Made by a program: the position numbers and the translations under genes. Below the pieces are notes generated by a model. It ran no database searches, had not been told where the DNA came from, and saw only the letters and a program-made list of their open reading frames with translations. From the IMG/VR virus record IMGVR_UViG_3300007963_000006, positions 4,526 through 68,525 of that record: a stretch of DNA of 64,000 nucleotides. One strand, written 5' to 3'. Each line of letters begins with the position of its first letter. Position 1 is the first letter of the stretch. Below, one piece after another: positions 1 through 64,000 of this stretch. This stretch comes from a virus.

Positions 1-1
1 G

Positions 2-241
2 GCAGACAAGGCATACAAGCGCACAGACGCACAGAATCAGGCACTTCACATGGTGTTGCTACAATACACCACCATCGAGGGCTACGGTGCTGAAAAATGG
101 CTTGATTGGGCTACAAACGGTGAACGTGGCTGTTCTGTTCCGGCATGGCATCAACCCGTGATCTGCACAGTGGATGATATTCAAGACGCCATGCAATACA
201 TGGTCGAGAATTATTGGACTCATCAGAAGGTGGTTGCATGA
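2..241 (+). CDS. Hypothetical protein, 5' partial
   Basis: Frame is open from the window start into the listed 50..241 ORF; ends in an ATGA overlap. Confidence 0.65.
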   Translation, partial: ADKAYKRTDAQNQALHMVLLQYTTIEGYGAEKWLDWATNGERGCSVPAWHQPVICTVDDIQDAMQYMVENYWTHQKVVA

Positions 242-333
242 TGTTCAGATTCAATTTGTGTTCAAAATGCGACTGTTTGACGGTTGAGAATTTCTGTGTT
301 GTTTGTCATTACGAACAGGAAGTGGTTGCATGA
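238..333 (+). CDS. 31-aa Cys-rich microprotein
   Basis: MMFRFNLCSKCDCLTVENFCVVCHYEQEVVA; fills the gap exactly with ATGA overlaps at both ends; two CxxC pairs. Confidence 0.6.
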   Translation: MMFRFNLCSKCDCLTVENFCVVCHYEQEVVA

Positions 334-878
334 GTCTTTCATCACAAATCGCTGACATTGAGGATGAGAACAAGCGATTGAAAGAGATCTTGGGTCAGGT
401 TCACGCACTTGTCCTTGAGGCCACCCACCCTGATTACAGGGGTTCAAGCGGTGATGCCTTGAGTAAGATTCGACAAACCTTCAGGAACGCTGCTCACGCC
501 GAGCCAGTCGAGCCAGTCGAGCCTGAATCAAAGAGAGCAGTAGTCAAGTGGATTCGACGTGTGCCTCCTCCCCCCTCCAAGATGGAGGATTCGCCTATGC
601 GCCCCGATCTAACTGATGAGCAGTGGCGCAAGGCACAGGGTGGTCATTGGTCCGGTTGGATGCGTGACTACATTTACGACCACCAGTGCCCCAAGTGCGG
701 TCAAGGTGCCCTCAATTGGTGTTCATCAGCGACATACCCGTATGAGCAAACAAACAGCCCTCATGTGGCTCGTATCAAAATGGCTGTGCCTGAAATCCGC
801 AAGCATCTTCACGATGAATGGTTGGCTCTCCCTGAACAGGCCCACCTTTTGTCACAAATCACGGAGGAGAGCGTATGA
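330..878 (+). CDS. Hypothetical protein (coiled coil + CxxC)
   Basis: ORF track; start moved to the ATGA overlap at 330. Confidence 0.75.
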   Translation: MSLSSQIADIEDENKRLKEILGQVHALVLEATHPDYRGSSGDALSKIRQTFRNAAHAEPVEPVEPESKRAVVKWIRRVPPPPSKMEDSPMRPDLTDEQWRKAQGGHWSGWMRDYIYDHQCPKCGQGALNWCSSATYPYEQTNSPHVARIKMAVPEIRKHLHDEWLALPEQAHLLSQITEESV

Positions 879-1306
879 GCGAATCAATCGATCCAGTCTA
901 TGTCTGCCCTGAAGGTAATGTGTATCGTGACGGCGACGTGGCACCAGTCATCAAGACTGAAACCGGCTTCAAATACAACGTGCCTATCAGACGCTATGAT
1001 TGTCCGGGGTTTGCGGGCTTGGTGCAGATTGCTATGCCGCAGCCACGTCAGCACTGCTGTTCATGTGGGAATTGCCCCGATGTAATCGTTCGTAAGGTCG
1101 TGACAGAATACACACCTGAATTGGATGAGGATATGATAATCGAATGGGTTGTCGAACCATACCGTGATGAGGACGAGAACGGCGATGTGCCGTTCTTTGT
1201 CGGTCCTGCATCGGATGGGTGGCGATACGATTACGCACGCAGCCAGTATTGCGCTGCACGCGCAAAGCAGATTCACGAACAGACCATGATGGGAGGCGGT
1301 GCTTGA
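875..1306 (+). CDS. Hypothetical Cys-rich protein
   Basis: ORF with GGAGG SD and ATGA overlap. Confidence 0.75.
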   Translation: MSESIDPVYVCPEGNVYRDGDVAPVIKTETGFKYNVPIRRYDCPGFAGLVQIAMPQPRQHCCSCGNCPDVIVRKVVTEYTPELDEDMIIEWVVEPYRDEDENGDVPFFVGPASDGWRYDYARSQYCAARAKQIHEQTMMGGGA

Positions 1307-1411
1307 ATGTCGAGCGCACATTGTTCATGCCGAACCTGTGGGGTTTTCATCCACTTTCAATTGGAACCATATTCGTCAATGCAGATATGTAAAGAATGCT
1401 GTCAAAAGTGA
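1307..1411 (+). CDS. 34-aa Zn-ribbon microprotein
   Basis: MSSAHCSCRTCG...ICKECCQK, starting directly after the upstream stop. Confidence 0.5.
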   Translation: MSSAHCSCRTCGVFIHFQLEPYSSMQICKECCQK

Positions 1412-1421
1412 AGGGTGATTC

Positions 1422-1700
1422 GTGATGAAAGACCGAGCAGGAGAATTCCCATTACAATGTCCTCGGCCATCCTGTGCCGGTATCATCGGTTTAGATCGTG
1501 ATGGCTATGCCTGTCTGCCCTGCGAGGTATGCGGGCACAACATCACAGCGTGTCAGAAGTGCGCTCGCACGATAAATCGCCACAAGAGGGGAGAGCCAGT
1601 CGTTGTGGACGGTTTGAGATACTGTAACGAGCAGTGTGCAACCAATGGCACAGGCTCATTCATAGACAGATGGGAGAAGCAACAAGGCGGTGATGAATGA
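1422..1700 (+). CDS. Multi-CxxC zinc-finger protein
   Basis: CPRPSC, CEVC, CQKC, YCNEQC. Confidence 0.7.
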   Translation: MMKDRAGEFPLQCPRPSCAGIIGLDRDGYACLPCEVCGHNITACQKCARTINRHKRGEPVVVDGLRYCNEQCATNGTGSFIDRWEKQQGGDE

Positions 1701-1840
1701 TGGTGGGGTGGAAAAGGACATCGTGGATCAATCTCGGTGACGGGAGAATATCGCGTGAATTTGGTTCTCCGGGTGTGCATGGAAAGAACGCTTCTCTCTT
1801 TTGGTGGGTATTGCACATTCCGCTATGGAAGGAGGTCTGA
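1697..1840 (+). CDS. 47-aa hypothetical protein
   Basis: Fills the gap; ATGA overlap and GGTGA SD. Confidence 0.45.
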   Translation: MMVGWKRTSWINLGDGRISREFGSPGVHGKNASLFWWVLHIPLWKEV

Positions 1841-1843
1841 AGA

Positions 1844-3354: not shown

Positions 3355-3576
3355 ATGGCAAAGAGAGCAGCAAGTGTAGCACACGCGGAATATGAAATTC
3401 TGCGTGAATTGATGAGAAACATCGATCTGGAAGATTTGATGGATGAAATGGTGGTTGGACGCAACGCCGACGAGATTCGACACGCACAGAAGAGATGGGA
3501 CGATGCTTCCACCAACCTTCTGAAGTGGATGAAGAAGCGGGCTGACGTTCGCGCAAAGGCGGTGCCTAAGAGATGA
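3355..3576 (+). CDS. Hypothetical helical protein
   Basis: GAGGT SD; ORF track. Confidence 0.7.
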   Translation: MAKRAASVAHAEYEILRELMRNIDLEDLMDEMVVGRNADEIRHAQKRWDDASTNLLKWMKKRADVRAKAVPKR

Positions 3577-7831: not shown

Positions 7832-8127
7832 CTGGTTGGGGCATTCAATGGTCCGATCCGGACACCAATTCTGCATTCATGTTGTCGTTGGAAGGGCCAA
7901 GCAAGAGCGGTTGGTATTCAGCGTTGATTGAGATTGAGAGCGGAGAGCCGCAGGACATTCTGAAAACGGCACAAGGAATCTTAGAGGAACGAGGATTCTA
8001 TCGACCGCACGATAACTGGTTGGATTGGGAAGAAATCAACACCACTTACATGAGGAAGCAAGCCACATATCATCAAATCAAAGTGAGGAAATCACAGGGG
8101 GCGAAAACAAATGACGAAGAAGAATGA
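7828..8127 (+). CDS. Hypothetical protein
   Basis: GTGA overlap. Confidence 0.7.
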   Translation: MTGWGIQWSDPDTNSAFMLSLEGPSKSGWYSALIEIESGEPQDILKTAQGILEERGFYRPHDNWLDWEEINTTYMRKQATYHQIKVRKSQGAKTNDEEE

Positions 8128-11069: not shown

Positions 11070-12557
11070 ATGGCCTCACCGAATTTCTCACACATCGCCG
11101 CCTGTTGCAGACAGGCATACAATGGCGTGAGAAGGCCACACATCGTGTTGGAGAGCGCATTCGCGCTGTCACCGAAGGAAATACCCTCCCTAATCGAATT
11201 CTTCTATGAGGACGGTTCCATAGGCGAGCGTCTGTCCGATGAGGACTTGCGCGAAATCTTTTACAATCTCACCGATCTATATCCTGAAGAGGTTGAGAGC
11301 GAGCCTGACTTGATTCAGATTCTCTCCAATCTCTCCGAGGAGATTGAAACGACAGTGAACTTCAAATTTGTTCACGCAAACATGAAACAAATGTTTAGCG
11401 AATCCACAATTTTCACGACCCACACTTCTCAAGAAGTGGATAACAAGGTGCGCTCACTGCTCATGCGAACCCTGCTGAAGCGTGTGACGGCGCGAGATGC
11501 CTATTGGCTCATCCTCCGCCTCACGCGCAAAGCAAATCCATTCAAGCACCGCGACGTAGTGAATGCACTGGCGATTCATCACAAAACACTGAAGGCGCGT
11601 GTGAGGAAAGAGGCACTGTTCACGCCGCTTTCTCAATTGGCACGGAAAATGCCCGAAGAATTGGTGGGTGTTCCTACCATCGGTGCGCCACTGCTCATTC
11701 CACTACCCGCTCGCACATACGCGCCCCACTTCTTCATCGACAATTACCTTGAGATCATTCGTGGTGAACGACTGGTGATGCACAAGGGCGAGGATTTCAT
11801 TTCATTTCACGATCCAAATGGGGTCGAAGTGGAAGTCGAACCCCATTTAATCGTGGGTGACTTTTTCGACGGCAACCCCTTGCCTCACGGCATCTATCTT
11901 ATCGAGCGGGTGCCGAAGGCCGAATATCCACTGAAAATTGTGGACGTGTTATATTCTCACGATTCCATCCAAGATAAGCCGCTTCAAGATAGACGACTAT
12001 GGTTGGAGGAAAATTTACCTGATATGTTCATCAAGCCAATGGAATGGGTGCAAAACGTCGCACAATTGAAGGCGAAAGCACCCAAGAATGGCTTGTGCTT
12101 CATCCACAATGCACGCGCCCCCGTGTCATACACCAACAGCCGCGAAGAGGTCGTCCGATTCAGCACGAAAGCCACAGGGGATATATTCAGACTGATTGGC
12201 GGCGTATGGCGTCACGATGCAGGACGCGGGCTGACGCTCAATTCATGGCGTGTAGCCGCCCGTGATGGAATCGACGGCTACTATGAAGTGGGCGACATTC
12301 CATGCGGGAACACCGATAGATCGTCCGATTTGGAAAAGACACTGGCGAAAATGACTGTCAAGGGACAGGCTGTTGAGGGCGAATTGCTCTTGATGGAGAA
12401 CCCGACATTCGTTGATGTGCAGGTTCACTTCGCAGAATACGGCGAACGAGGAATTATCATTCAAGGTTCGATTGAAGGCATTGTCAATAACGCGGGCATA
12501 TCCGATGTTGTGCCTGTTGAGGAAGTCGAATGGCTGATGGGTGGTGAGGAGGAATGA
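11070..12557 (+). CDS. ATP-dependent DNA ligase homolog, catalytic motifs degenerate
   Basis: DBD-like DAYWLILRL..VVNALA; motif I LEIIRGER; IIIa IVDVLY..PLQDRRLWLE; OB-like DIFRLIGGVW...SWRVAARD...EVG. Confidence 0.7.
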   Translation: MASPNFSHIAACCRQAYNGVRRPHIVLESAFALSPKEIPSLIEFFYEDGSIGERLSDEDLREIFYNLTDLYPEEVESEPDLIQILSNLSEEIETTVNFKFVHANMKQMFSESTIFTTHTSQEVDNKVRSLLMRTLLKRVTARDAYWLILRLTRKANPFKHRDVVNALAIHHKTLKARVRKEALFTPLSQLARKMPEELVGVPTIGAPLLIPLPARTYAPHFFIDNYLEIIRGERLVMHKGEDFISFHDPNGVEVEVEPHLIVGDFFDGNPLPHGIYLIERVPKAEYPLKIVDVLYSHDSIQDKPLQDRRLWLEENLPDMFIKPMEWVQNVAQLKAKAPKNGLCFIHNARAPVSYTNSREEVVRFSTKATGDIFRLIGGVWRHDAGRGLTLNSWRVAARDGIDGYYEVGDIPCGNTDRSSDLEKTLAKMTVKGQAVEGELLLMENPTFVDVQVHFAEYGERGIIIQGSIEGIVNNAGISDVVPVEEVEWLMGGEEE

Positions 12558-13648
12558 CTGGTCTTTCTGTTGATGGTGTCACTTTACATCTCGGTGATTG
12601 TTTAGAGAAGTTACGCGAAATGGAGGACGAAATAATTGATTCTTGCATCACTTCACCGCCATACTACGGCCTCCGAAATTATGAAAATGAAGGTCGTTGG
12701 TGGGGTGGTGATATTGATTGCGAGCATGAAAAAGGTGCAATTATCACACATCAACGCCGATCTAATGACGGAGGTTCAGCAGGGAGAAAACAGACCACAA
12801 ACAAGGGGGCAGGAAAACGCGATATGCCTTCCGAGCATTGTTATTGTGTGAAGTGTGAGGCATGGTTCGGGCAATTGGGCTTAGAACCTTCTCCTGAAAT
12901 GTTTGTTGCTAATCTTGTTGAGATATTCAGGGAAGTAAAACGGGTATTGAAGCCAACAGGCACCTTTTGGTTGAATATCGGTGATACTTACTGGGGCGGC
13001 AAAGGAAAGAGCGGCCATAACAATGCTGATTATCAAAGCAAAAGAAATGATAAGCACTTGCAGAAATCGCACCATAATGCAATAGGTGGAAAGGGACTTA
13101 CTCGCCCACAGGACGGCAAACACGCTACGATCAAACCGAAAGATTTGATGATGTTACCACACCGATTAGCGATAGCCCTTCAGGATGATGGATGGTGGGT
13201 AAGAAATGACATCGTTTGGGCGAAGCCCAACCCTATGCCTGAATCCGTGAAGGACAGATGCGGAAGGGCACATGAATACATCTTCCTTCTCACCAAGTCG
13301 AAGAAGTATTTTTTTGACCACGAAGCCATCAAAGAGCCGACCACAGATGGCAAAGGGAAACGCACAAGACGTGATGTTTGGACCGTTCCTGTGAAGCCAT
13401 ACAAAGGGGCGCATTTTGCTACGTTCCCCCCTGAATTGATTGAGCCTTGCATTCTTGCAGGTTGTCCTGAAGGGGGTGTCATTCTCGATCCATTTGCGGG
13501 AAGTGGGACCGCAGCACTTGTCGCCTTGAAATTTGGTCGGCGTGCTATACTGTGCGAATTGAATTCTGAATACGTTCCATTGATAGAAAAAAGGCTCACG
13601 GGCGTTACACAGCGAAGTAAGTCACTGGAACAAATTACGGATTGGTGA
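12554..13648 (+). CDS. DNA amino-methyltransferase, beta class (probably N4-cytosine)
   Basis: TSPPY, LNIGD, IVWAKPNPMPES, HFATFP, LDPFAGSGT. Confidence 0.93.
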   Translation: MTGLSVDGVTLHLGDCLEKLREMEDEIIDSCITSPPYYGLRNYENEGRWWGGDIDCEHEKGAIITHQRRSNDGGSAGRKQTTNKGAGKRDMPSEHCYCVKCEAWFGQLGLEPSPEMFVANLVEIFREVKRVLKPTGTFWLNIGDTYWGGKGKSGHNNADYQSKRNDKHLQKSHHNAIGGKGLTRPQDGKHATIKPKDLMMLPHRLAIALQDDGWWVRNDIVWAKPNPMPESVKDRCGRAHEYIFLLTKSKKYFFDHEAIKEPTTDGKGKRTRRDVWTVPVKPYKGAHFATFPPELIEPCILAGCPEGGVILDPFAGSGTAALVALKFGRRAILCELNSEYVPLIEKRLTGVTQRSKSLEQITDW

Positions 13649-21815: not shown

Positions 21816-22774
21816 TGATTACACATCGGGCACCACGTCCAATCCCAGTGAAGGGGCACGACGATTTATTCTCCTGCTATCACTGGCACCCCGAAATGCC
21901 GGATAATGTCATTCTCCGTATGAGTAAATCGTCGCTGCTGTCTGACTTCGGGTTTTGCCAACAGCAGGGCTTCATCAAGCGCATTGTGGGTATGAAGGAA
22001 CCACAGAACGACAATATGCTTCGGGGAACCAATGTTCACGATTCAGTGGAATTATTCTATGACCGCGTGGATATTGAAGAAGCGAAGGCAGCAGAAGATA
22101 TGCTCAAACTTGACAGGTATTTCCAACGCTGTTTTCCCAAACCACCTGAAATCCGTTCCGCTCAAGACTCATTCTATTTGGATGAAGATTTGCACCTTGA
22201 CAGGTGGCGAAAGGTGGAAGTGGAGAGATTCTTAGGTTCCGATCCAGAAAACTTCCTCCCGACTGGAAATGAATTGGTGGTTGATCATATCATGGATATT
22301 GAAGTCGATGGTGTGTCACAACCAGTGCATTTCACGGGCATTATTGACCGTATATTCACCAACCCTGACGGCTCACTACACGTTCACGAATTGAAAACCG
22401 GACTGTGGAAGGACACCAAATACAAGTATGAATCCATGCGAAAGGAAATGGCCTTCTATGTATGGATGCTACGCAAGATGGATGCTTCAACACCAGTCAC
22501 ACACTGGGGTTGGGACCACACGAAAGGGGTCAAGGGCACCGATAGCGAGGATGCCCAAGTATTCCGTTACGTTGAACCAGTGCGCGTCAAGGAAATTGGC
22601 CTGATGTTGGCTGATGTGCATAATCTCATTCGCAATTATCGTCGCTACAAGGGCGACGGTGACGGGTCCATGTTCCCTTTGATTTCTGCCTCTATGCAAT
22701 CACGCCTTTGCGATCCGTGGTGTGCCCTCAAGGAATTCTGCCCGCGCTACGCCAACGTCTTGGAGGACTACTGA
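21815..22774 (+). CDS. Cas4/RecB-like PD-(D/E)XK exonuclease with Fe-S cysteines
   Basis: N-terminal FCQQQ, GTNVH, GIIDRI, ELKTG, C-terminal CDPWCALKEFCP. Confidence 0.85.
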   Translation: MITHRAPRPIPVKGHDDLFSCYHWHPEMPDNVILRMSKSSLLSDFGFCQQQGFIKRIVGMKEPQNDNMLRGTNVHDSVELFYDRVDIEEAKAAEDMLKLDRYFQRCFPKPPEIRSAQDSFYLDEDLHLDRWRKVEVERFLGSDPENFLPTGNELVVDHIMDIEVDGVSQPVHFTGIIDRIFTNPDGSLHVHELKTGLWKDTKYKYESMRKEMAFYVWMLRKMDASTPVTHWGWDHTKGVKGTDSEDAQVFRYVEPVRVKEIGLMLADVHNLIRNYRRYKGDGDGSMFPLISASMQSRLCDPWCALKEFCPRYANVLEDY

Positions 22775-24270
22775 TGAGTTACGAATTGGTTCAGGGCGAT
22801 TGCCTCAAGGTCATGGAGAGGGTGGAGGACGACAGCGTGGATTCTATCGTCACCGACCCCCCGTATGGATTGACCCAAAACAAGCGGGGTGGCAGTGGGG
22901 CAGCAAGCGCAAGTAATGAAACGCCATACGGCAGGGCAAGAATTGGAACGGGGAATGGGGCAGGTGGCTTCATGGGTATGAAATGGGATTCCGGCGTCCC
23001 TCCTGTTGAGATATGGGAAGAGGCATACCGAGTCTTGAAGCCGGGGGGTTATCTGCTTGCTTTTGGTGGTTCACGGACCTATCACCGAATGGTGGTGAAC
23101 ATTGAGGATGCGGGCTTTGAAATCCGTGACCAAATCATGTGGCTGTATGGGTCGGGCTTTCCAAAATCACATTCCGTCAGTAAGGCCATCGACAAACTCG
23201 GTGGCGATTCTGCCGTCCTTGTTGAAATGGCGCAAGCACTGGAACAGGCTCGCCTTCAAAGAGGCATGACAATCAAGGAATGTGATGACAAATTCTGCAA
23301 CGGTTCAACAAATTGGAATTGGATTGAAGGGAAGCGAGATAGAATCACGCAGCCATCCGAGGAACAAATGAAATTGATTGCTGAAGAATGGTCTGAAATG
23401 GAACCAATCTTTGACGCCTTCAATGTCAAGGGTAACGTGGTGGGTTCAATTACACATTCCAGATCGGGCGGGAAGGATTTCGCAAAACAAGTCGGCTCTC
23501 AAGCCGAGAAGCGTGCGGAAATTGTTTTTGATCACGGCACTGACCCCGCTAAACAATGGGAAGGTTGGGGAACGGCCCTCAAGCCCGCCCATGAGCCTAT
23601 CGTAGTGGCTCGCAAGCCCTTCAAGGGCACAGTGGCCGAGAACGTGCTTGAACACGGCACAGGGGCCATGAACATTGATGGGTGCCGTATTCCATCCGAT
23701 GAAGAAGTGAAAACTTCAATAGGGGCAGGTTTTGGAGGAACAAGTCTGTTTGAGGGAGGAACAAAAGAAAGAAAAGAGAGTGAAGTGCGACAAGAGCGTT
23801 GGCCCGCTAACGTCATTCTTGACGAAGAGGCCGGTGCTATGCTTGGCGAAGAATCACGCTTCTTCTATTGTCCGAAGGCGAGCAAGTCCGAGCGCAACAA
23901 GGGTTGTGAGGAATTGGAACCACAAAAAATGGGTCGTAATCAATCATCACTTGATGGTGGGAAAATACTCACGGGTTCAGGGAATGAGAGAAGTAACGAG
24001 AAACAAAACCACCACCCCACCGTCAAGCCGGTGGATTTGATGAAATATCTATGCCGTCTTGTGACACCACCCGGCGGTGTCGTTCTCGATCCATTCATGG
24101 GAAGTGGAACAACGGGCATAGCCGCCTGTGTCGAGGGCTTCAATTTCATAGGCATTGAGCGTGAAGAGGACTACATCGAAATCGCTCGCAATCGAATTGA
24201 AACATGGGTTGAGGAAAAGGAAGAACAAGTGCGTGAGGAACGGGCACAGACAAGCCTCTTTGATTGGTGA
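22774..24270 (+). CDS. DNA amino-methyltransferase, beta class, with inserted XRE-type HTH
   Basis: TDPPY, WLYGSGFPK, HPTVKP, LDPFMGSGTTG; insert LEQARLQRGMTIKE...WIEG. Confidence 0.92.
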   Translation: MSYELVQGDCLKVMERVEDDSVDSIVTDPPYGLTQNKRGGSGAASASNETPYGRARIGTGNGAGGFMGMKWDSGVPPVEIWEEAYRVLKPGGYLLAFGGSRTYHRMVVNIEDAGFEIRDQIMWLYGSGFPKSHSVSKAIDKLGGDSAVLVEMAQALEQARLQRGMTIKECDDKFCNGSTNWNWIEGKRDRITQPSEEQMKLIAEEWSEMEPIFDAFNVKGNVVGSITHSRSGGKDFAKQVGSQAEKRAEIVFDHGTDPAKQWEGWGTALKPAHEPIVVARKPFKGTVAENVLEHGTGAMNIDGCRIPSDEEVKTSIGAGFGGTSLFEGGTKERKESEVRQERWPANVILDEEAGAMLGEESRFFYCPKASKSERNKGCEELEPQKMGRNQSSLDGGKILTGSGNERSNEKQNHHPTVKPVDLMKYLCRLVTPPGGVVLDPFMGSGTTGIAACVEGFNFIGIEREEDYIEIARNRIETWVEEKEEQVREERAQTSLFDW

Positions 24271-24276: not shown

Positions 24277-25338
24277 ATGGCGCACATATTCCGACATTTC
24301 CCGCGTGAAGTGGATATGCGAAAGAGGAAAGTGGTGCATAACATGGACGAATTGCAGCATTACGTCAAGGCCACCAACGGTGCTGATGACCTGACAACCA
24401 CCGTCTATGGCTTCCAACAATTGAAGCCAAAAGGCAATCGTGGTGAGTATTCCACAGCCATTGTGCCCCACTTCGTCATTGATATGGACTACGAACGGGC
24501 TAAAACACCCTCTAACACGGCGCGAGAGGCAGGGAATCGTTGTCTGCGGGAAGTATTGGCCCTGCACCATCATTTGCTCTCTAACGGGTGGAAACACGCC
24601 ATGTGGTTCACAGGCGGTGGCGTCCACATTTGGGTCAATCTCGATCAGACGCACTATCCCGAGGAAAGCCTATCCGATTTATTCGTCACTGGACGGCGTA
24701 TGATTGACGGTTGGGTCAAGCAGTGGGATTTATCCACGCTCGATCCAGTCGTGTCATTCCGCCCTGACCGTCACATTCGCATTCCTAACACATACAATTT
24801 CAAGCGTGGCCTATGGGGTATGCCGCTTCAAACCAGTGACCTTGAGGGTGATTGGGAGGAAATCTTGTCACGGGCTGTCGAGCCGCACGGGGGCATGAAT
24901 CTCTATGGGCAACACGGGTTACATTTGGACGTGAAGAAGCGTGACCCTGCAACCCCCTTTGAGGCCGAGAAGGTGGACGTGGATATGAAGCGCATTGGGT
25001 CTATTTCTGTGCTGCCTTGCTTGGCTGCTGCGGCCTGTGAGGAGGGTGGCAATCCTCCACATGAGGCACGCATCTATCTCACCATGTTCCTTCAGGACCG
25101 GCTTCGGTCTTTCGCACGTCCCCCTCAATCATCACAAACGAGCAACGATGGTATCGTAGCCTCGATCTGTAACTTCATCAAGGATTTGAAATGGTCTGAC
25201 TACAATGAGGAGATAACTCATCAAAATGTTAAGCACAGTGTTGGGAGTCACTACATGACCCCTTCTTGTCGCACGCTTTACGCGAAGGGATATTGCATCG
25301 GTAAATGTCCTTTCTATGACGGCACAGGGGGTGTCTGA
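24277..25338 (+). CDS. Archaeo-eukaryotic primase, PriS-PriL fusion
   Basis: IDMD, FTGGGVH, RIPNTYN; then LPC...HEAR...PSC...CIGKC (PriL Fe-S-like domain). Confidence 0.88.
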   Translation: MAHIFRHFPREVDMRKRKVVHNMDELQHYVKATNGADDLTTTVYGFQQLKPKGNRGEYSTAIVPHFVIDMDYERAKTPSNTAREAGNRCLREVLALHHHLLSNGWKHAMWFTGGGVHIWVNLDQTHYPEESLSDLFVTGRRMIDGWVKQWDLSTLDPVVSFRPDRHIRIPNTYNFKRGLWGMPLQTSDLEGDWEEILSRAVEPHGGMNLYGQHGLHLDVKKRDPATPFEAEKVDVDMKRIGSISVLPCLAAAACEEGGNPPHEARIYLTMFLQDRLRSFARPPQSSQTSNDGIVASICNFIKDLKWSDYNEEITHQNVKHSVGSHYMTPSCRTLYAKGYCIGKCPFYDGTGGV

Positions 25339-41919: not shown

Positions 41920-44900
41920 TTAATTCCACACCGACCTCGCGTTGTAAAGCGTTGTGATTTCACTTGCCGAAAGCACCTTATTCCACAGGGCTACTTCGCT
42001 CAATCGGCCCTTGAAATAAATTGGATTGGAATTGGTGACTGTGAGATCATACGGCTCCCCGTAGTAGTAAGACCCCGTGAGATCGTATGCCTCATGTGAA
42101 CATAGACTGATACCGATAGCCGCCATATTTGCCGCACGACCATAGAGGCCAGTCGCAAGAGCAGACACCTTCTTCAAATTGTTAGTGTTCGGTGCTTCGG
42201 CCAAAATCCCTTCCTTGAATCCAATCGTTGTAGCATTGAGGGAATCAACAATGCCGAGGAATACCCCTGCATTTGTAAATACCTCATCTCCAATCGAAAA
42301 GTGAGTCAAGGCACTTGCACCACCAACGGTAATTGTGGTCCCACCCACCGCAACGGTTCCACTGACAACAACGCCGGACACTGCAAGTGTGCCCACACCG
42401 ATCCCTGCGGTCAAATGGGGTTGTCCTGAATTTGAACCGGCGTTATAGCCCGCATCCCCTGTGACCACATGATCAGTGTCGGTTGATGTGTTGGTTGTTG
42501 CTTTTACTGCCCCATTGACGTAAATGAGAGGAATACCTGTGCTTCCGTCACTTGTCACAACAACGTGATACCAAGCATCTTTAGCACCTGTCAGGGACAC
42601 ATTGGTGGTGGTGGCGAGATTTGTTCCGGCTGCTGCACTTGCATTCGCAATAATTTTGTAATCCCAATGACTTGTTGTGGAATGTTGTTTGCTGATAATT
42701 GACACGCCCCATTGTTTGCCGTTTGCGTCTATGCCTTGAAGAACGGGTCCATTCCCATGAGCCGCACTTGACCAAGTGCCCGTATTGCCGGGATGAACAA
42801 AGAATGAAATTGACCACGGGGTAGTCACCATATTCGCAGGGATGGGAACGCGGGGAAGAACCTGATTGGTTCCGTTAATCTCAATCTTGTGTAGTGATAT
42901 GGCGGTATGTGCATTCCCACTTGGTGTAGCGTGCGCTCCCTGCAATAATGCCCCGCTTGCATCACCATCAACGGTCACGGCAGAAGCAGCCACAGCCGCT
43001 AACGCCGACGACCAATTACCGAATGCCTTCAATTTCGTTCCATATAGATCTTCTGCATCAATTTCTGTTCCTGTTGTCAGGCCGTGATTTGTGGAACCCA
43101 ATGATGCGTGATTCATCCTCACATAGAACAGACAATCATGCGTCATCAAATGGGCACTGGCCGCAGCCACGCCTGTTGAAGTGACCGTTTGTGCATGATG
43201 AATGCCGCGATAGGTATTCTCCTTGACAGTATCACTGTTGCGAATTTCGGTGAAATCTAACACTGCGGCTGATGTTTGGACTTCTTGCAGATTTTGGAAT
43301 CCTGAATACCCAGTCGGCCCTTTGGCGTAATGGTGGGTGTAAAAATCGCTGTAATCATTGGCGGTTCCATCGCTTACGTCGAACGTCACACCAGTGTGAC
43401 CACCACCAAAGAATAGAATTCCGTGAGCGTCAATCAATGGTGAAATCACTTTGATTGGCACTTCTTTGAAATTCCCGTCACTATCATAGAACAAGTCCTT
43501 CCACTTCTTGCCCAATGAGCGATCCAATGGATACACATTCCACAGCCCCGCACAAGCACCTGTTCCCGATGCCCTGCTGATGGTGCCACCAATACCGGCT
43601 GCGTTGTGAGTAAATGTGCCTAAATGCTTGTCATCGACCAAAATAAGTCCTTCATTCCCCCATGTAGTGGCTTTTGAAATGCGTCTTAGAGCGTCCAGTG
43701 CTTTTCGCTCAACCCACAATATGGATTGGGTATCAGGGTCGTAGGGGGGTAAATCACTATTGCTTGTGTCCTTTGGATTTCGCACCGTTTTGAATTCAAA
43801 TTCCTGACCAATGCCGTTGTAGGTTCGCAAATTTCCGTCCAAGTCCTCGACAGCACCATGCACGCCTCCCTGAAATGTAGTGATAGGGACGTGTGTTTCA
43901 CCATCCATCCCCAACGGAAGAGGGGCAGGGAATGACCCTGCTTGATACGATCTGCTGTTTGTCGCAACCAACCCACCATGACCAACAGCCTGAATGGGCC
44001 GATATGGATATGGGCCGTAATTATTCAACCACACGGCAAAATTGCGTCCAGTAGCACCGGGAATAGTGCTGTGAATGACAATTGACCTTCCTTGTTCACC
44101 ATCACGACTTTCCACATCGCCTCCGAGGAAAGCACGAATATACCCCATGTGACTTCCAGTATCGTCAGAAGTTACAGTGTAGGTTCCTTCTGCCGCTGTG
44201 AAAAGAGTCGGTGGGTCAAAGGCACTTCCGCCATTTTCATTCTTTGCCAATGGGTGCCCTGCTTGGTTAATTTGGCGGATTAACTCATCCACCGCATCAT
44301 CAAATTTAGTCACTGTGCCCTTGCTACTCACTTCACCCAATTTGATACGCATTGGTCGCACATAATCCAATGTGTTATCACTACGCTTGCCCTTGAGAGC
44401 AAGATAGCCGCTTCGACATTCGATTGGAGGGACGAGGGGAATGTCGTCATTCCCATAGAGATAATTGCCGGGGTCAAAGGAGAATCCTTCCATTGTTGGT
44501 CCGTCATTGATGAGAATTGCTTCATTGTCGTCTGGATCGATGCAAATTCTTGTAGTGCCACTTCCGTGTCGAAGTCCCAAAGCCCGCTCCATCGGCAGCA
44601 CAAAATTCTGTGCAAGAGTCGCGTTAGACGTTGATGCGCCCACCGTTATTCCGGTCAAATCACTGACACCCACTTGCCCTTCACCGGCTTCATCTGTTAG
44701 CCAACAGCCCATCACAACGGGGAGGCCAGTAATCATTTTTCGTTCAATTCCACCACCGCCTGTGGGTCCGGCAGCATTGTTGTCAAAATCGTGAAATCGG
44801 TTCCAATAGAGGCGGTGTGAATCGCCGTTGATTTCCATTTTCCAAATATGCAATCGAAGCCCCCTTTCACTTAGAATGCCTTCTCCGACAGTCACAACAA

Positions 44901-58569: not shown

Positions 58570-58572
58570 CCC

Positions 58573-59020: not shown

Positions 59021-59599
59021 TCATTCGTAATAGATAACTACGAATAATGACCCTGTGCTTCCATCCCAAGCACCGGCTCCGCTCAATCCTAAACTGACCG
59101 ATACCTTGCCGCAGACAAGACCAGTCCACGGCGTAGTATCGTCCATCACTGTGGCTGCTCCTGCGCCATTGAGGGTTTGTGGGAGGGCACCGCTGTTCTG
59201 CTTTCCGGGCCACACCACTAAATGGTTAGCATCAGCGTGGGTGCCATCGGCAGTGGCCGCACCTTCACTGGTTTGAAATTGATATGGTGCAGGGGAAGCC
59301 GCTGTGAAATCCAATGCACTGATTTGTGCATGGTATGAGTAAGGCGTGCCCGCAGCATCGACCAAATCACCATCCAACAATTGAAATGTGCCGTGTGTTT
59401 TATTCACGGTTCCTTCACATACGCATCGGGTAGCATCAACAACAATTTTGTGGATTTTACCATTCATTTGAAATTGGGCTATTGCCTGTGGCGCACCGAC
59501 CAATTCAGGTGCAGTAAATTCATAGACAAGGCGATTGACACGGGTTCTAGATCCGTATCGTCCTTCGCCATCATCAATGCTGTGAGCGTGAATAGGCAT
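59021..59599 (-). CDS. Putative virion structural protein
   Basis: In the head module; TAATG overlap. Confidence 0.65.
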   Translation of the reverse strand: MPIHAHSIDDGEGRYGSRTRVNRLVYEFTAPELVGAPQAIAQFQMNGKIHKIVVDATRCVCEGTVNKTHGTFQLLDGDLVDAAGTPYSYHAQISALDFTAASPAPYQFQTSEGAATADGTHADANHLVVWPGKQNSGALPQTLNGAGAATVMDDTTPWTGLVCGKVSVSLGLSGAGAWDGSTGSLFVVIYYE

Positions 59600-61630: not shown

Positions 61631-61671
61631 TTCTCATCATCTCCATTTTTTTTGTTTGTAACCTGTGTCCC

Positions 61672-62991
61672 TCACTGGACGCTCCCGTGCAAAGCACGTT
61701 GTCCGAGTTCTTCCAATGCTCGCCATCCGTCAATGTCGTTGCCAAGAGCGGCAAATTCTTCGTGGGTTGGCACGCGAATGTCAGATTGGGCCGGGACGGG
61801 CACCGCTGACTTTTGAATTTCTGCGTTTGTAGTGCGTAGTGATTCGATTTCCTGCGTCAATGCAGCAATCTGTGAACCGTAGTCACGCGATTTTTGCACT
61901 TCAAGTGCTTGCTGTGTTTCAGCCTCATATCGGTCATTCCATTCCTTCTCAACAAGGGACTTTACAGCCTCTTCGTCGCGGATTCCTGAATATGCCTGAT
62001 AACCACGCTCAAGTGATTGTGGGGTCAGGTCAAGACCCTGCTTGATGACTTGACGGTTGCCCTGTGGGGCTGCGTTCTTCATCTGTGGAACCTGTGGTTG
62101 CTTAATCACATATTTGTTGGATTTTGCATTTGGAAGGCTTGGTGCTGATGCGAGGGTTGCATCTTCACCGCTGCCGATAAGGTCGCCCTGTCCTCGGTGG
62201 TTGAAGCCATGTGAGCCATCAACGCCAACCATATACGCCTTGCCAAGTCCGAAGTGACCACGAAGGCCATCCAGATCGACACCTTGTTGGTGTGCGAATT
62301 TTTCTAATGAGTCAATGTAAGCGATTGCCTGTTCTTCAGTTTTCGCTACGGGTGCGGGAGCCTGTTCGACTGCCGGTGCCTCATCTGTTTCCATGTGCTT
62401 GTTTATCCGAGATAGTGCATCTCTAATTTCATTCAAGGTTTCGCTTTGTTCGCTTGTCATATCATCACTTTCCATTTTCAATAGGGTGTATGTGCTTTCA
62501 GGGTTGATGCCCTTTTTGCACAAGGTAATCTCATGCAGTTCCATATCCGTGATTTCACGGTGGGTGCCATGTTCTTCTGTGGTCTTAGACACACGGAAGA
62601 GGGCTTGACCCCCAATGGAAAATGCTCGCAGTTCGCCACTGCGAACCTGCTTTTGGACTTCACGCGCCTTCTCAATGTCGTTGCGGATTTTGCATACGAC
62701 GAAGAGGCCGTGGTCATCAACGGTGGATTTCCACACGCGCCCTTCACTATCTGTATAGGACGGTAGGACTTCTCCAACCTGAATGCCACTGTGCGCTAAC
62801 TGGACGTTACGGTAAGCCGCGTTATCCATGAATCCGTTGAATGCCTTCTTCAAAGCGGATACCGGGATTCTATCTCCCTGCTTATCCACCATATCAACGG
62901 AGGCATAACCGGCGATGACGAGATCGTTGCCTGATGCCGCCTTCAGAATGAAGTCGGAACCAGTCGCAGACCACAGCGCACTTTGAGCCAT
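61672..62991 (-). CDS. Prohead protease fused to scaffold
   Basis: IAGYASV..VDKQGD, H, AFSIGG, EITL...GINPE; coiled-coil C-terminus. Confidence 0.9.
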   Translation of the reverse strand: MAQSALWSATGSDFILKAASGNDLVIAGYASVDMVDKQGDRIPVSALKKAFNGFMDNAAYRNVQLAHSGIQVGEVLPSYTDSEGRVWKSTVDDHGLFVVCKIRNDIEKAREVQKQVRSGELRAFSIGGQALFRVSKTTEEHGTHREITDMELHEITLCKKGINPESTYTLLKMESDDMTSEQSETLNEIRDALSRINKHMETDEAPAVEQAPAPVAKTEEQAIAYIDSLEKFAHQQGVDLDGLRGHFGLGKAYMVGVDGSHGFNHRGQGDLIGSGEDATLASAPSLPNAKSNKYVIKQPQVPQMKNAAPQGNRQVIKQGLDLTPQSLERGYQAYSGIRDEEAVKSLVEKEWNDRYEAETQQALEVQKSRDYGSQIAALTQEIESLRTTNAEIQKSAVPVPAQSDIRVPTHEEFAALGNDIDGWRALEELGQRALHGSVQ

Positions 62992-63019
62992 TGAACAAAG
63001 TCAGTTCGTGTTATGGTAT

Positions 63020-64000
63020 TTAACCACTTGGTTGAGGGGGAGGCATAGGACCGGGCATTGGTGGTTCAGGTTCTTCTTCGATTGGAACGACCACTTCTTC
63101 CTCATCTTTCGCCTCACGGGGTGTTTTTTGCGGGAATCGAAGGGTTGCTCTATTACCTTCAACCTCTAATTCACCTTCAACGTCCTCTCCCTGCCCATCT
63201 TTTGTTTGAATGTTGATATGCGTTGGCAATCCTTCCGGCATTCCTTGTTCTTCCAAACGGTATGGATCGAACATAGGTGTCGCTTCTTCATCCGTTAATT
63301 CAGTGGGTCCACGCGGCGTAGTAATCATATCTAACATTCCCGAAGGCACCCCACCCTGTATAGAACCACTAATTCGGGCAAGAGGCGAACCCTGACGCTC
63401 AACAATCTCATTGTCAAGTGCTTCATTCACAGTCCATTCACCTTCTTCCGTGCGCTCAAGGCCATATTCTGCCCCTAATTCATCAAGCATTCCTTCATCT
63501 AAACCTTTGACCTTACTTCTCAATGCCTGACTTGTCATTGAATTATCTGCATCCATCAGTAATTTACGGGCTGCAACAAGAGCGTGTTGTGAATCTCTCT
63601 CTCCACCGTTCGTGTCTAACAATGGGGCGCGAATAAAGAGGGTTGAATCTTCAGTAGTAATTTTCGGTGGATACGGCGTGACCTCCGAAATGTCATATTT
63701 CATCAGATGTGCGGCCACTGGACCCCATAATTGGAATTGCTTTTCCGCATGAATAGACAATGGGTTTTGTGGTTCAATGCCTTGCACGGCATAAGTGTCA
63801 TCCTCAAATGTTGATTTGACAATTACTGGTTGAATATGTCCGGGGTATTCCAAAACAATGTTCCCATTGTGATATGATGTTGAAGGATAGGGGGCATTCA
63901 TCTTGGTCAAATCATCCCCATTAGGGCTGTATAGAACCCATTTGTGGTGGTTTTCCTTTTCCTTCATAAATGTTGAAGTGGCATCTCGCAACCAAATTGA
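63020..64000 (-). CDS. Head-module protein, 5' partial
   Basis: Frame is open to the window end; acidic/Pro-rich tail. Confidence 0.7.
   Translation of the reverse strand, partial: SIWLRDATSTFMKEKENHHKWVLYSPNGDDLTKMNAPYPSTSYHNGNIVLEYPGHIQPVIVKSTFEDDTYAVQGIEPQNPLSIHAEKQFQLWGPVAAHLMKYDISEVTPYPPKITTEDSTLFIRAPLLDTNGGERDSQHALVAARKLLMDADNSMTSQALRSKVKGLDEGMLDELGAEYGLERTEEGEWTVNEALDNEIVERQGSPLARISGSIQGGVPSGMLDMITTPRGPTELTDEEATPMFDPYRLEEQGMPEGLPTHINIQTKDGQGEDVEGELEVEGNRATLRFPQKTPREAKDEEEVVVPIEEEPEPPMPGPMPPPQPSG

What the first reader, a model, noticed from the sequence alone, without database searches (positions are those of the whole stretch)
1..64000. Window-wide avoidance of CCAG[A/C/G], CTAG, AGCT and GTAC; surviving sites all overlap GATC
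Seen by eye, not computed: nearly every CCAG/CTGG is CCAGT/ACTGG (well over a hundred copies), and I found no CCAGG or CCAGC. The only CCAGA/TCTGG found are GATCCAGA (22241, 29776), CCAGATC (23459, 62271) and TCTGGATC (44531). The only CTAG found is CTAGATC (59547). AGCT and GTAC were not seen, while GATC is common. Inference: the avoided words are host restriction targets, tolerated only when an overlapping methylated GATC blocks cutting. Only a methyl on the C of GATC falls inside the avoided word in all six cases, which points to GATmC (for example m4C) rather than GmATC.
Basis: partly seen in the sequence, partly recalled or inferred. Interest (0 to 1): 0.8.

Follow-up and report, generated by a model that had tools for sequence, protein, structure and literature searches.

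The report
GATC mark shields purged restriction sites
This ocean archaeal virus has erased dozens of short DNA words that restriction enzymes cut and keeps copies only where they share at least one base pair with GATC, which suggests that the virus chemically marks GATC and that this one mark also hides the neighbouring target sites.

Summary
In the window AGCT and GTAC are absent and CTAG occurs once. CCAGC and CCAGG are absent, and CCAGT/ACTGG occurs 188 times. In addition, 49 of the 64 six-base palindromes are absent from the contig, and 18 of 18 surviving sites of the six G/C-containing, non-GATC-containing palindromes overlap GATC.

The contig is a tailed archaeal virus. A collinear relative lies in a Poseidoniales single-cell assembly. 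Related viruses show the same rescue (TCGA 18/18 and 35/35, CTAG, CGCG).

Shielding stops exactly at the edge of GATC. Observed/neutral ratios are 0.43 for 2-bp overlap, 0.17 for 1-bp overlap and 0.01 for merely adjacent words.

The likely writer of the mark is a rare Dam-fold methylase at 28723-29991. Which base is marked is open. The geometry favours the terminal G:C pair (GATm4C, about 0.5). The enzyme family and the avoided CGATCG/GGATCC favour Gm6ATC (about 0.3). M.CbeI shows that a D12/DPPY enzyme can make m4C.

The scan found this shielding before on other magrovirus DNA (e1-6091200, e1-6021243, e1-6091190, e1-6021232, e1-6124873).

The parts
1..64000 (.). Window-wide purge of short restriction-type words: AGCT, GTAC, CTAG, CCAGA, CCAGC, CCAGG, CAGAG, CTCAG, GAGAC, GTAGA, GGAGT and 49 of the 64 six-base palindromes.
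   Evidence: Codon-shuffle expectations are 70-180 copies for each 4-mer or 5-mer, against 0-6 observed.
3424..3430 (-). GATCTGG, which is CCAGATC on the minus strand. A surviving CCAGA sharing 2 bp with GATC. The same GATC also covers ATCGAT at 3421.
22241..22248 (+). GATCCAGA. A surviving CCAGA sharing only the terminal C:G pair of GATC.
23459..23465 (+). CCAGATC. A surviving CCAGA with 2-bp overlap. It lies inside the methylase 2 gene.
29776..29783 (+). GATCCAGA. A surviving CCAGA with 1-bp overlap. It lies inside the methylase 3 gene.
44531..44538 (-). TCTGGATC, which is GATCCAGA on the minus strand (1-bp overlap). The same GATC covers ATCGAT at 44536.
62271..62277 (+). CCAGATC. A surviving CCAGA with 2-bp overlap.
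59546..59553 (.). TCTAGATC. It holds the only CTAG and the only TCTAGA. CTAG shares 1 bp with GATC.
28838..28846 (.). CCATGGATC. The only CCATGG, with 1-bp overlap.
   Evidence: null fraction 0.029.
38787..38795 (.). CCCGGGATC. The only CCCGGG, with 1-bp overlap.
   Evidence: null fraction 0.051.
38939..38946 (.). TCGCGATC. The only TCGCGA, with 2-bp overlap.
7855..7862 (.). GATCCGGA. One of the 3 TCCGGA sites, all of which overlap GATC. The others are at 20028-20035 and 36679-36686.
   Evidence: 3 of 3; null fraction 0.189.
887..892 (.). ATCGAT. The first of 10 copies in the window: 887, 3421, 7673, 15276, 17701, 18182, 30193, 31948, 33369 and 44536. An eleventh lies upstream of the window. 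All 11 read GATCGAT or ATCGATC.
   Evidence: 11 of 11; null fraction 0.389; 27.6 sites expected.
28723..29991 (+). Methylase 3 (422 aa). Alpha-class order, FGGSGS then DPPY, with a weak D12/Dam family match. It is the candidate writer of the GATC mark.
12554..13648 (+). Methylase 1 (364 aa). Beta-class PF01555 with an SPPY catalytic motif, so predicted to methylate cytosine N4. It is not the GATC enzyme. Tolerance of CCGG tracks its presence.
22708..24270 (+). Methylase 2 (520 aa). Beta-class PF01555 with DPPY and an inserted domain, of a type widespread in phages. Target unknown.
25244..25249 (+). GGAGTC. One of the 4 surviving GGAGT in the contig, all of which read GGAGTC. The others are at 41178, at 47801-47806 on the minus strand, and upstream of the window.
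   Evidence: null fraction 0.27; GGAGTC 4 observed against 24 expected.

Best explanation
The contig is a tailed virus of marine Poseidoniales-type archaea. Selection by many host restriction systems has removed about 60-80 short target words from it. That much is shown as a pattern; the agents are inferred.

The virus keeps GATC because GATC is chemically modified. The most likely writer is its own rare Dam-fold methylase (28723-29991), which is an inference. A target word that shares at least one base pair with GATC then carries the mark inside its own recognition sequence and is not cut. Such copies are neutral and persist at about their chance frequency.

Shielding ends exactly at the outer base pair of GATC. 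I therefore lean to a mark on the terminal G:C pair, most simply N4-methylcytosine (GATm4C). In GATCTAG this gives the same Cm4TAG methylation that known CTAG systems use. I put this sub-claim at about 0.5, and Gm6ATC at about 0.3.

The 0.8 confidence applies to 'restriction purge plus shielding by a GATC modification', not to which base is marked.
For: 1. Depletion against a codon-aware null. The host chromosome contigs of the Poseidoniales single-cell assembly G001 carry every word at normal levels. Its 106-kb viral contig C2 lacks AGCT, CCAGC, CCAGG, GTAGA and GCAGC.

2. Survivors in this contig that overlap GATC:
- CCAGA 6 of 6
- CTAG 1 of 1
- ATCGAT 11 of 11
- TCCGGA 3 of 3
- TCGCGA 1 of 1
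- CCATGG 1 of 1
- CCCGGG 1 of 1
The joint probability is about 1e-17.7. The words were chosen after seeing them.

3. Control. Over 10 related genomes, 30 of 149 survivors overlap GATC, against 7.2 expected. The other 15 palindromic 4-mers stay at expectation.

4. Replication in relatives:
- L168: its only CTAG and its only GTAGA overlap GATC.
- L169: 2 of 2 CGCG overlap.
- G005 (95% complete, collinear with this contig): TCGA 18/18, ATCGAT 6/6, its only CGCG, CTAG, TCGCGA and TCTAGA.
- G012: CCAGA 5/5, TCAGA 6/6, CTAG 3/3.
- 56 capsid-gene loci: TCGA 35/35 distinct sites, CGCG 4/11, CTAG 2/4.

5. Positional profile in 12 methylase-3-positive genomes, as observed over neutral expectation:
- 2-bp overlap: 44/103
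- 1-bp overlap: 21/127
- adjacent: 1/87
- gaps of 1-4 bp: 0, 1, 0 and 0 of 87 each

6. Link to the methylase.
- 9 of 9 viral loci with a methylase 3 homologue contain GATC.
- 30 of 30 loci of another virus group that carry only methylase 1 have none.
- In G001 the only D12-class methylase lies on the viral contig.
- The fold model's best solved matches are E. coli Dam, DpnM, the entry 7m6b titled 'Mcbe1', and T4 Dam (the model is weak, pLDDT 58).

7. Support for the m4C sub-claim.
- M.CbeI was annotated as a D12 N6-adenine enzyme and has DPPY, yet it makes m4C (PMC3425538, passages read).
- Characterised CTAG methylases make Cm4TAG (PMC5867850, passages read).
- Most persistent archaeal 4-mer methylases are m4C (PMC10609329, passages read).
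Against: 1. Methylase 3 matches the D12 adenine family (Pfam 37.8 bits against a cut-off of 22) and has DPPY. Its NCBIfam Dam score is below cut-off (33.9 against 114.85). By family it should make m6A.

2. CGATCG (0 against 11.7-17.6 expected) and GGATCC (1 against 9.4-14.2 expected) stay purged. M.BamHI makes 4mC (PMC8885841, passage read; that it is on the C of the embedded GATC is recalled). I also recall that M.PvuI methylates that same C at N4. Under GATm4C, such sites should be safe from enzymes like those. PvuI is unaffected by methylation of the internal adenine (PMC6604393, passage read), which fits m6A.

3. In contrast, C2 purges TGATCA (0). I recall that Dam methylation blocks BclI at this site. 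These clues therefore conflict.

4. All 2-bp and 3-bp rescues (TCGA, ATCGAT, TCTAGA, TCGCGA, TCCGGA, TCAGA) are equally explained by m6A.

5. Three near-complete relatives (G006, G007, G010) carry GATC without a methylase 3 homologue, so GATC tolerance does not always need this enzyme.

6. They show almost no rescue (4 observed against 111 neutral). That control is confounded, because G007 and G010 avoid RGATC itself.

7. Rescue is uneven among positive genomes. C2 has 0 against 24 under the strict cut-off.

8. No methylation data exist, and no host restriction enzyme was identified.
Confidence: 0.8

Rival explanations
1. The mark is ordinary Dam-type Gm6ATC written by methylase 3. Words sharing 2-3 bp carry the methyl-adenine inside them. 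Words sharing only 1 bp are protected because the host enzymes are also blocked by a methyl-adenine on the base pair immediately next to their site.
For: - Methylase 3 has the D12 family match, DPPY and a Dam-like fold.
- Archaeal GATC methylases surveyed so far are Dam-like m6A enzymes (PMC10609329, passages read).
- Haloarchaeal tailed viruses with a Dam-type methylase keep GATC, and those without it lack GATC (PMC8651126, passage read).
- CGATCG and GGATCC stay purged. PvuI ignores adenine methylation (PMC6604393, passage read).
- All 2-bp and 3-bp rescues fit this reading.
Against: - 21 one-bp rescues in 12 genomes, a ratio of 0.165, against 0.012 for adjacent words. Several different enzymes (CTAG, CGCG, CCAGA 5' side, CCATGG, CCCGGG, GAGTG) would all have to sense a methyl group outside their site but not one base pair further out.
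- From recall, supplier tables list no such flank sensitivity for BfaI, BstUI, NcoI or SmaI.
- C2 purges TGATCA, although I recall that Dam blocks BclI.
Confidence: 0.3
2. GATC is modified by a host methylase (an orphan Dam-like enzyme) during replication, not by the virus. Shielding then works as described.
For: - Dam-like orphan GATC methylases persist in several archaeal groups (PMC10609329, passages read).
- G006, G007 and G010 carry GATC without a methylase 3 homologue.
Against: - In the 1.2-Mb Poseidoniales assembly G001 (completeness not given) the only D12 methylase is on the viral contig.
- 9 of 9 loci with methylase 3 have GATC.
- The genomes without methylase 3 show almost no rescue, although that control is confounded.
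Confidence: 0.08
3. The words are avoided so that host orphan methylases (CTAG, AGCT, GTAC, CGCG m4C) cannot mark them, because marked DNA would be cut by methylation-dependent nucleases in the next host. A modified overlapping GATC stops the host methylase.
For: The avoided 4-mers match the motifs of persistent archaeal orphan m4C methylases (PMC10609329, passages read).
Against: - It does not explain the purge of about 49 six-base palindromes and many asymmetric 5-mers.
- It needs two layers of inference.
- No methylation-dependent nuclease was looked for.
Confidence: 0.08
4. The mark is not a methyl group on C but a modified guanine (for example a 7-deazaguanine) or a bulky adduct at GATC. 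This fits the geometry equally well, because the terminal pair is G:C on either strand.
For: - Geometry read directly from the sequence.
- From recall, related haloarchaeal tailed viruses are known to carry 7-deazaguanines.
Against: - No TGT/DpdA or QueC homologue in the 68.5-kb contig. The contig is only 65% complete.
- A methylase candidate is present instead.
Confidence: 0.05
5. Chance, mutational bias or codon usage produces the pattern.
For: None beyond the fact that the words tested were chosen after inspection.
Against: - Codon-preserving shuffles.
- The control with 15 other palindromic 4-mers.
- Replication in independent genomes.
- The sharp positional profile.
Confidence: 0.01

Closest known systems
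Restriction-site (short palindrome) avoidance in phage and archaeal virus genomes, and the rule in haloarchaeal tailed viruses that a virus either encodes a Dam-type methylase and keeps GATC or lacks both (Liu et al. 2021, PMC8651126, passage read)
   Same: Target words are purged by synonymous choice. A virus-encoded methylase goes with tolerance of its motif: methylase 3 with GATC, and methylase 1 with CCGG.
   Different: The scale differs: 49 of 64 six-base palindromes plus many 4-mers and 5-mers are at zero in 68.5 kb. The survivors form an overlap footprint that maps the reach of the mark to single base pairs. The host lineage is marine Poseidoniales, not haloarchaea. Term look-ups in three magrovirus papers found no mention.
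Blocking of type II restriction enzymes by overlapping Dam methylation, such as ClaI, XbaI, TaqI, NruI, BspEI and Hpy188I (recalled from supplier tables and REBASE; not retrieved here)
   Same: The rescued words sharing 2-3 bp (ATCGAT, TCTAGA, TCGA, TCGCGA, TCCGGA, TCAGA) are exactly the sites of this textbook list.
   Different: Here the effect is read from natural selection on viral genomes, not from digests. It extends to words that share only the terminal G:C pair (CTAG, CGCG, CCATGG, CCCGGG, GATCCAGA), which the Dam list does not contain.
M.CbeI / DmtB: alpha-class methylases annotated as D12, with DPPY, that make N4-methylcytosine at GGCC (PMC3425538, passages read; I take PDB 7m6b, titled 'Mcbe1', to be this enzyme)
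   Same: Methylase 3 is also alpha-class with FGG then DPPY. It has a weak D12 match, and its model matches 7m6b almost as well as E. coli Dam (E 2e-6 against 1e-7).
   Different: The target would be GATC, not GGCC. The product of methylase 3 is unknown.
Magroviruses (tailed viruses of Marine Group II / Poseidoniales; PMC5434244, listing and abstract seen, term look-up only)
   Same: An archaeal-type replication module (PolB, an AAA+ ATPase with a clamp-loader-type domain, primase large-subunit-like protein, XPF-type nuclease), a marine source, and a relative in a Poseidoniales single cell.
   Different: I did not place the contig in a named magrovirus family. Its proteins are only 23-30% identical to those of haloarchaeal tailed viruses in the phage collection.

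Membership tests
Restriction-site avoidance | Words depleted against a null that keeps protein sequence and codon usage | tested here: met
   For example AGCT 0 against 169, GTAC 0 against 179, CCAGC 0 against 123.
Restriction-site avoidance | The host genome is not depleted of the same words | tested here: met
   140 kb of host contigs of G001 carry all words; 0 of 64 six-base palindromes are absent there. This host is that of relative C2, not necessarily of this virus.
Restriction-site avoidance | Matching restriction enzymes in the host | not testable with these tools
   Specificities cannot be read from sequence. G001 showed no PF01555 match above cut-off.
Methyl cross-protection by overlapping sites | Survivors overlap one particular motif more than chance, and other motifs do not | tested here: met
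   GATC 30 observed against 7.2 expected; the 15 control motifs are at expectation. Also.
Methyl cross-protection by overlapping sites | The effect depends on position relative to the motif | tested here: met
   ratios 0.43 for 2-bp overlap, 0.165 for 1-bp overlap, and 0.012 or less for gaps of 0-4 bp.
Methyl cross-protection by overlapping sites | The motif is actually modified in virion DNA | not testable with these tools
   No methylome data.
Dam / D12-class GATC adenine methylase (methylase 3) | Family profile match | tested here: inconclusive
   Pfam PF02086 scores 37.8 bits, above the cut-off of 22. NCBIfam TIGR00571 scores 33.9, below its cut-off of 114.85. There is no PDB sequence match.
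Dam / D12-class GATC adenine methylase (methylase 3) | Alpha-class motif order with FxGxG before (D/N)PPY | tested here: met
   FGGSGS, then DPPY, invariant D305, P306 and Y308; position 307 is Q in 1 of the 8 homologues.
Dam / D12-class GATC adenine methylase (methylase 3) | Dam-like fold | tested here: met
   best matches are 2g1p (E 1e-7), 2dpm and T4 Dam. The model is weak (mean pLDDT 58).
Dam / D12-class GATC adenine methylase (methylase 3) | GATC specificity | tested here: inconclusive
   9 of 9 homologue-bearing loci contain GATC. But 3 near-complete relatives have GATC without the gene, and the GATC-free relatives lack the relevant genome part.
Dam / D12-class GATC adenine methylase (methylase 3) | The product is N6-methyladenine | not testable with these tools
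   The geometry of 1-bp rescues argues against adenine only. M.CbeI shows that the family can make m4C (PMC3425538).
Beta-class N4-cytosine methylase (methylase 1) | PF01555 match with an SPP(Y/F) catalytic motif | tested here: met
   SPPY is invariant in 9 of 9 aligned homologues. The motif rule comes from PMC8885841 (passage read).
   30 of 30 loci with 76-81% identical orthologues contain no GATC.
Magrovirus / Poseidoniales tailed virus | Archaeal-type replication genes and tailed-virus morphogenesis genes | tested here: met
   PolB, an AAA+ ATPase with a clamp-loader-type domain, primase large-subunit-like protein, ERCC4 nuclease, prohead protease.
Magrovirus / Poseidoniales tailed virus | Link to a Poseidoniales host | tested here: inconclusive
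   About 35 proteins match contig C2 of a Poseidoniales single-cell assembly at 26-80% identity. This is indirect for this virus.

The most novel reading that the evidence does not exclude
The rare Dam-fold, DPPY methylase of this magrovirus lineage is a GATC-specific N4-cytosine methylase (GATm4C). By methylating the outermost base pair of GATC it mimics the protective hemimethylated state of many unrelated archaeal restriction targets (Cm4TAG, CGCG, CCATGG, CCCGGG, CCAGA, TCGA and others). One enzyme then works as a broad anti-restriction device, and its reach can be read at single-base resolution from genome sequence alone.
Probability: 0.4. Interest if true: 0.75.

Novelty: new variant of a known kind. 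Interest (0 to 1): 0.66.

Why it matters
[quoted passage not shown] These genomes carry a readable record of both.

- The list of purged words is a catalogue of restriction specificities that the host population deploys. It differs from virus to virus.
- The overlap footprint shows which motif the virus modifies and how far that mark protects.
- It gives a cheap, purely computational way to infer DNA modification in uncultured viruses.
- It yields directly testable predictions for three methylases: GATC for methylase 3, CCGG for methylase 1, and an open target for methylase 2.
- If the mark proves to be m4C made by a Dam-fold enzyme, family-based calls of 'adenine methylase' in metagenomes would need caution.
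- If it is m6A, several archaeal restriction enzymes must sense methylation outside their recognition site, which would be unusual enzymology.

Tried and rejected
1. Methylase 1 (SPPY) as the GATm4C enzyme: rejected. Its 76-81% identical orthologues lie in 30 of 30 loci with zero GATC. Those loci share only this gene with our virus.

2. CGATC rather than GATC as the protecting motif. All six CCAGA survivors have C on the far side of GATC, but 84% and 72% of comparable GATC sites do too. Not significant.

3. T before CCAGA (6 of 6 read TCCAGA). Only 3 of these are free of the GATC constraint. Left unexplained.

4. 7-deazaguanine pathway. No TGT or QueC match in the contig. The contig is 65% complete.

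5. Methylase 2 as the cause of the 1-bp rescues: not supported. G012 has CTAG 3 of 3 rescued at 1 bp and no methylase 2 match in its 77.7 kb. That record is 73% complete.

6. Within-family test 'no methylase 3, no GATC'. The GATC-free relatives G002-G004 do not include the replication module, so the test is uninformative.

7. Negative control with G006, G007 and G010: partly confounded. G007 and G010 avoid RGATC itself, and G006 avoids a different word set.

8. Typing the methylases by homology. PDB and phage-collection searches gave only family-level matches.

9. Close relatives by PolB or methylase 3 single-protein scans of viral contigs: none found. The nucleotide search of the phage collection also found nothing.

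10. The fold model of methylase 3 is weak (pLDDT 58). I use it only for family placement.

11. Tools and data not used or not seen: the look-up of sequencing runs, read laying, complex prediction, the search of protein representatives and the protein-atlas search. Supplementary tables of the papers, for example S4 Table of PMC8651126 on methylases, were not seen and may bear on methylase typing.

12. Literature. Claims that the purge and the overlap footprint are not in print rest on these searches:
-, 'magroviruses': 18 papers.
-, 'restriction site avoidance' plus 'archaeal virus': 3 papers, none relevant.
- Zero-hit term look-ups in PMC5434244, PMC11706807 and PMC10160649.
Subscription journals are not covered.

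Full report
**Observation**

- AGCT 0 and GTAC 0.
- CTAG 1, at 59547.
- CCAGC/GCTGG 0 and CCAGG/CCTGG 0.
- CCAGT plus ACTGG make 188 of the 194 CCAG/CTGG.
- GATC 180.

There are six CCAGA/TCTGG sites, not five. All six overlap GATC: three as GATCCAGA and three as CCAGATC. The only CTAG reads TCTAGATC. The full 68,525-base contig, of which the window is bases 4526-68525, shows the same pattern.

**Significance**

I called 70 ORFs greedily and shuffled synonymous codons within each gene.

| Word | Expected | Observed |
|---|---|---|
| AGCT | 169 | 0 |
| GTAC | 179 | 0 |
| CTAG | 79 | 1 |
| CCAGA | 123 | 6 |
| CCAGC | 123 | 0 |
| CCAGG | 91 | 0 |
| CCAGT | 137 | 201 |
| GATC | 286 | 191 |

Under this null only 10% of CCAGA and 3.9% of CTAG sites overlap GATC. 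Six of six plus one of one therefore has a probability of about 5e-8.

The overlapping forms are present at roughly neutral numbers: CCAGATC 3 against 8.7, GATCCAGA 3 against 3.9, CTAGATC 1 against 3.1. This is what relaxed selection predicts.

GATC overlap does not rescue every word. CCAGC, CCAGG, CAGAG, CTCAG and GTAGA together have 16.3 expected overlapping copies and none observed. So 'CCAG[A/C/G]' is not a single target.

**The purge is much wider than reported**

- CAGAG, CTCAG, GAGAC and GTAGA are absent.
- GGAGT has four copies, all GGAGTC.
- 49 of the 64 six-base palindromes are absent from the contig. Summed, 181 are observed against 886 expected.

Apart from those that contain GATC itself, the palindromes that remain fall into two groups. 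The first is built around AATT or consists of A and T alone, plus two CTTAAG. The second overlaps GATC:
- ATCGAT 11 of 11
- TCCGGA 3 of 3
- TCGCGA 1 of 1
- CCATGG 1 of 1
- CCCGGG 1 of 1
- TCTAGA 1 of 1

Against the shuffle null the joint probability is about 1e-17.7. These words were picked after inspection.

An unbiased control over ten related genomes points the same way. Among the 16 palindromic 4-mers only GATC is enriched at survivors, at 30 observed against 7.2 expected. All the others are at expectation.

**What the contig is**

It encodes these replication proteins:
- a family B DNA polymerase
- an AAA+ ATPase with a clamp-loader-type (DNA_pol3_delta2) domain
- a primase large-subunit-like protein
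- an ERCC4-type nuclease
- a PD-(D/E)XK nuclease

Its prohead protease and polymerase resemble those of haloarchaeal tailed viruses at 23-30% identity.

A profile of methylase 3 found one hit in the species genome collection. It is the end of a 106-kb contig (C2) in an assembly titled by the tool as an uncultured Poseidoniales archaeon.
- About 35 of our proteins match C2 at 26-80% identity, in a largely collinear order.
- C2 lacks AGCT, CCAGC, CCAGG, GTAGA and GCAGC entirely.
- The other contigs of that cell carry all words at normal levels.

So the virus belongs to a family infecting Poseidoniales-type archaea, and the purge is a property of the viruses, not of the hosts.

The capsid-gene query found 247 relatives in the viral collection, of which 80 loci were kept. 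Among the 56 loci of at least 6 kb, each has its own mosaic of absent words. This fits diverse host restriction systems.

**Replication of the GATC rescue**

| Genome or set | Survivors overlapping GATC |
|---|---|
| L168 | only CTAG, only GTAGA |
| L169 | CGCG 2 of 2 |
| G005 (100.9 kb, 95% complete, collinear with ours) | TCGA 18/18, ATCGAT 6/6, only CGCG, CTAG, TCGCGA and TCTAGA |
| G012 | CCAGA 5/5, TCAGA 6/6, CTAG 3/3 |
| C2 | TCCGGA 3/3 |
| 56 capsid-gene loci (distinct sites) | TCGA 35/35, TCAGG 6/6, TCGAA 6/6, CCAGA 3/3, TCAGA 13/19, CGCG 4/11, CTAG 2/4 |

Some sites in the last row may coincide with those of G005.

There are also misses. Examples are 7 CGCG and 2 CTAG in the capsid-gene loci, one TCGCGA in C2, and no rescue at all in L167, L172 and, under the strict cut-off, C2.

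**Reach of the shield**

In 12 genomes carrying a methylase 3 homologue I compared observed survivors with the neutral expectation by position.

| Position relative to GATC | Observed / expected | Ratio |
|---|---|---|
| 2-bp overlap | 44 / 103 | 0.43 |
| 1-bp overlap | 21 / 127 | 0.165 |
| Directly adjacent | 1 / 87 | 0.012 |
| Gaps of 1-4 bp | 0, 1, 0, 0 of 87 each | 0.012 or less |

Protection therefore stops exactly at the outer base pair of GATC.

**The methylases**

The contig has three.

Methylase 1 (12554-13648) is beta-class with SPPY, the hallmark of most N4-cytosine enzymes (PMC8885841, passage read).
- Orthologues at 76-81% identity occur in 30 marine loci of a different archaeal-type virus group.
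- Those loci contain no GATC, CTAG, AGCT, ACGT, CGCG or CCAG. It therefore cannot be the GATC enzyme.
- Tolerance of CCGG tracks its presence.

Methylase 2 (22708-24270) is a beta-class DPPY enzyme of a type widespread in phages. Its target is unknown.

Methylase 3 (28723-29991) is alpha-class, with FGGSGS and then DPPY, and a weak D12 match.
- It is rare: 8 homologues in the large protein search.
- All 9 viral loci with a homologue contain GATC.
- In the Poseidoniales cell the only D12 enzyme is on the viral contig.
- Its weak model (pLDDT 58) best matches E. coli Dam, DpnM, the entry 7m6b titled 'Mcbe1', and T4 Dam.
- However, three near-complete relatives have GATC without this gene. Their near-absence of rescue, 4 observed against 111 neutral, is confounded. 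Two of them avoid RGATC itself.

**Which base is marked?**

For m4C, or another change on the terminal G:C pair:
- The 1-bp rescues involve at least six different words.
- The boundary is sharp.
- GAT(m4C)TAG reproduces on one strand the Cm4TAG state made by characterised CTAG methylases (PMC5867850).
- Most persistent archaeal 4-mer methylases are m4C (PMC10609329).
- N4-cytosine methylases for TCGA exist (PMC8885841).
- M.CbeI is a precedent: a D12-annotated DPPY enzyme that makes m4C (PMC3425538).

For m6A:
- The family and motif of methylase 3 point that way.
- Archaeal GATC methylases known so far are Dam-like m6A (PMC10609329).
- The parallel in haloarchaeal viruses holds (PMC8651126).
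- CGATCG stays purged, at 0 against 11.7-17.6 expected here, and is also 0 in G005, G012, L168, L170, L172, L174 and L175.
- GGATCC stays purged, at 1 against 9.4-14.2 expected.
- PvuI ignores adenine methylation (PMC6604393). M.BamHI makes 4mC (PMC8885841). From recall, both it and M.PvuI act on the very cytosine in question.

Against m6A, C2 purges TGATCA, a site that I recall Dam protects from BclI.

I put m4C at about 0.5, m6A with flank-sensitive enzymes at about 0.3, and other chemistries or a host enzyme at about 0.2.

**Comparison with what is known**

Restriction avoidance, virus methylases that license a motif, and Dam-overlap blocking are each well known. What appears new is threefold:
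- the absolute scale of the purge in Poseidoniales viruses;
- the overlap footprint as a base-pair-resolution readout of a viral DNA mark;
- the conflict between that footprint and the family of the candidate enzyme.

I found no mention in three magrovirus papers (term look-ups) or in two literature searches.

Within this scan the same shielding was reported before on other magrovirus DNA. Those notes agree with my reading, and I reached it independently on this genome.

Noticed in passing
whole window (contig-wide): All four NAATTN palindromes are tolerated (CAATTG 73, GAATTC 42, AAATTT 19, TAATTA 3), and AATT is enriched (515 against about 274). Nearly all other six-base palindromes are absent. 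AATT may be a second protected motif, perhaps the target of methylase 2. Unlike GATC, it shows no enrichment at survivors (2 observed against 5.3 expected).
   Followed up: partly
window 25244, 41178, 47801-47806 (and 2,982 bases upstream of the window start): All 4 surviving GGAGT read GGAGTC, and so overlap GANTC/GAGTC. But GGAGTC itself is 6-fold depleted (4 against 24). All four also have A or C at +7 and T at +9. Unexplained.
   Followed up: partly
window 30442-61445: The 12 surviving CAACT/AGTTG all have the same orientation (AGTTG on the minus strand) and all lie in the minus-strand gene block. None is followed by T. One-orientation survival is what type III restriction would allow, but coding-strand bias was not excluded.
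   Followed up: no
window 12554-13648 and loci L085-L114: Methylase 1 has 76-81% identical orthologues in a different group of marine archaeal-type viruses, which carry a PolD small-subunit-like protein and a CCA/polyA polymerase. Those viruses share no other gene with this contig and lack ACGT, CGCG, CTAG, GATC, CCAG, AGCT and GTAC in 260 kb. This looks like methylase exchange between virus families. CCGG tolerance tracks this gene.
   Followed up: partly
G007 and G010 (relatives; loci L305-L310, L316-L320): These near-complete relatives lack methylase 3 and keep GATC almost only as TGATC or CGATC. AGATC and GGATC are nearly absent, so they seem to avoid RGATC rather than GATC. They carry a 778-aa ORF with a weak D12-like domain.
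   Followed up: partly
G012:C1:31506-32849: The methylase 3 homologue of this relative has one in-frame TGA, yet the genome shows full GATC rescue (CCAGA 5/5, TCAGA 6/6, CTAG 3/3). This could be a recent break, a sequencing error or read-through.
   Followed up: no
window 13620-13648, 24240-24270, 29960-29991: All three methylases end in similar short tails (…ITDW, …SLFDW, …SLLEF). I only saw the tails in the translations.
   Followed up: no
window 22244, 23459, 29779, 62271, 3426, 44531: All six surviving CCAGA are preceded by T (TCCAGA). In three of them GATC does not impose this. It is possibly a further constraint, or chance (about 1 in 30-60).
   Followed up: partly
G001:C2 (loci L201-L206): A 106-kb contig in a Poseidoniales single-cell assembly is a largely collinear relative of this virus. 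It is probably a virus caught inside its host cell, which gives a direct host link for the family.
   Followed up: partly
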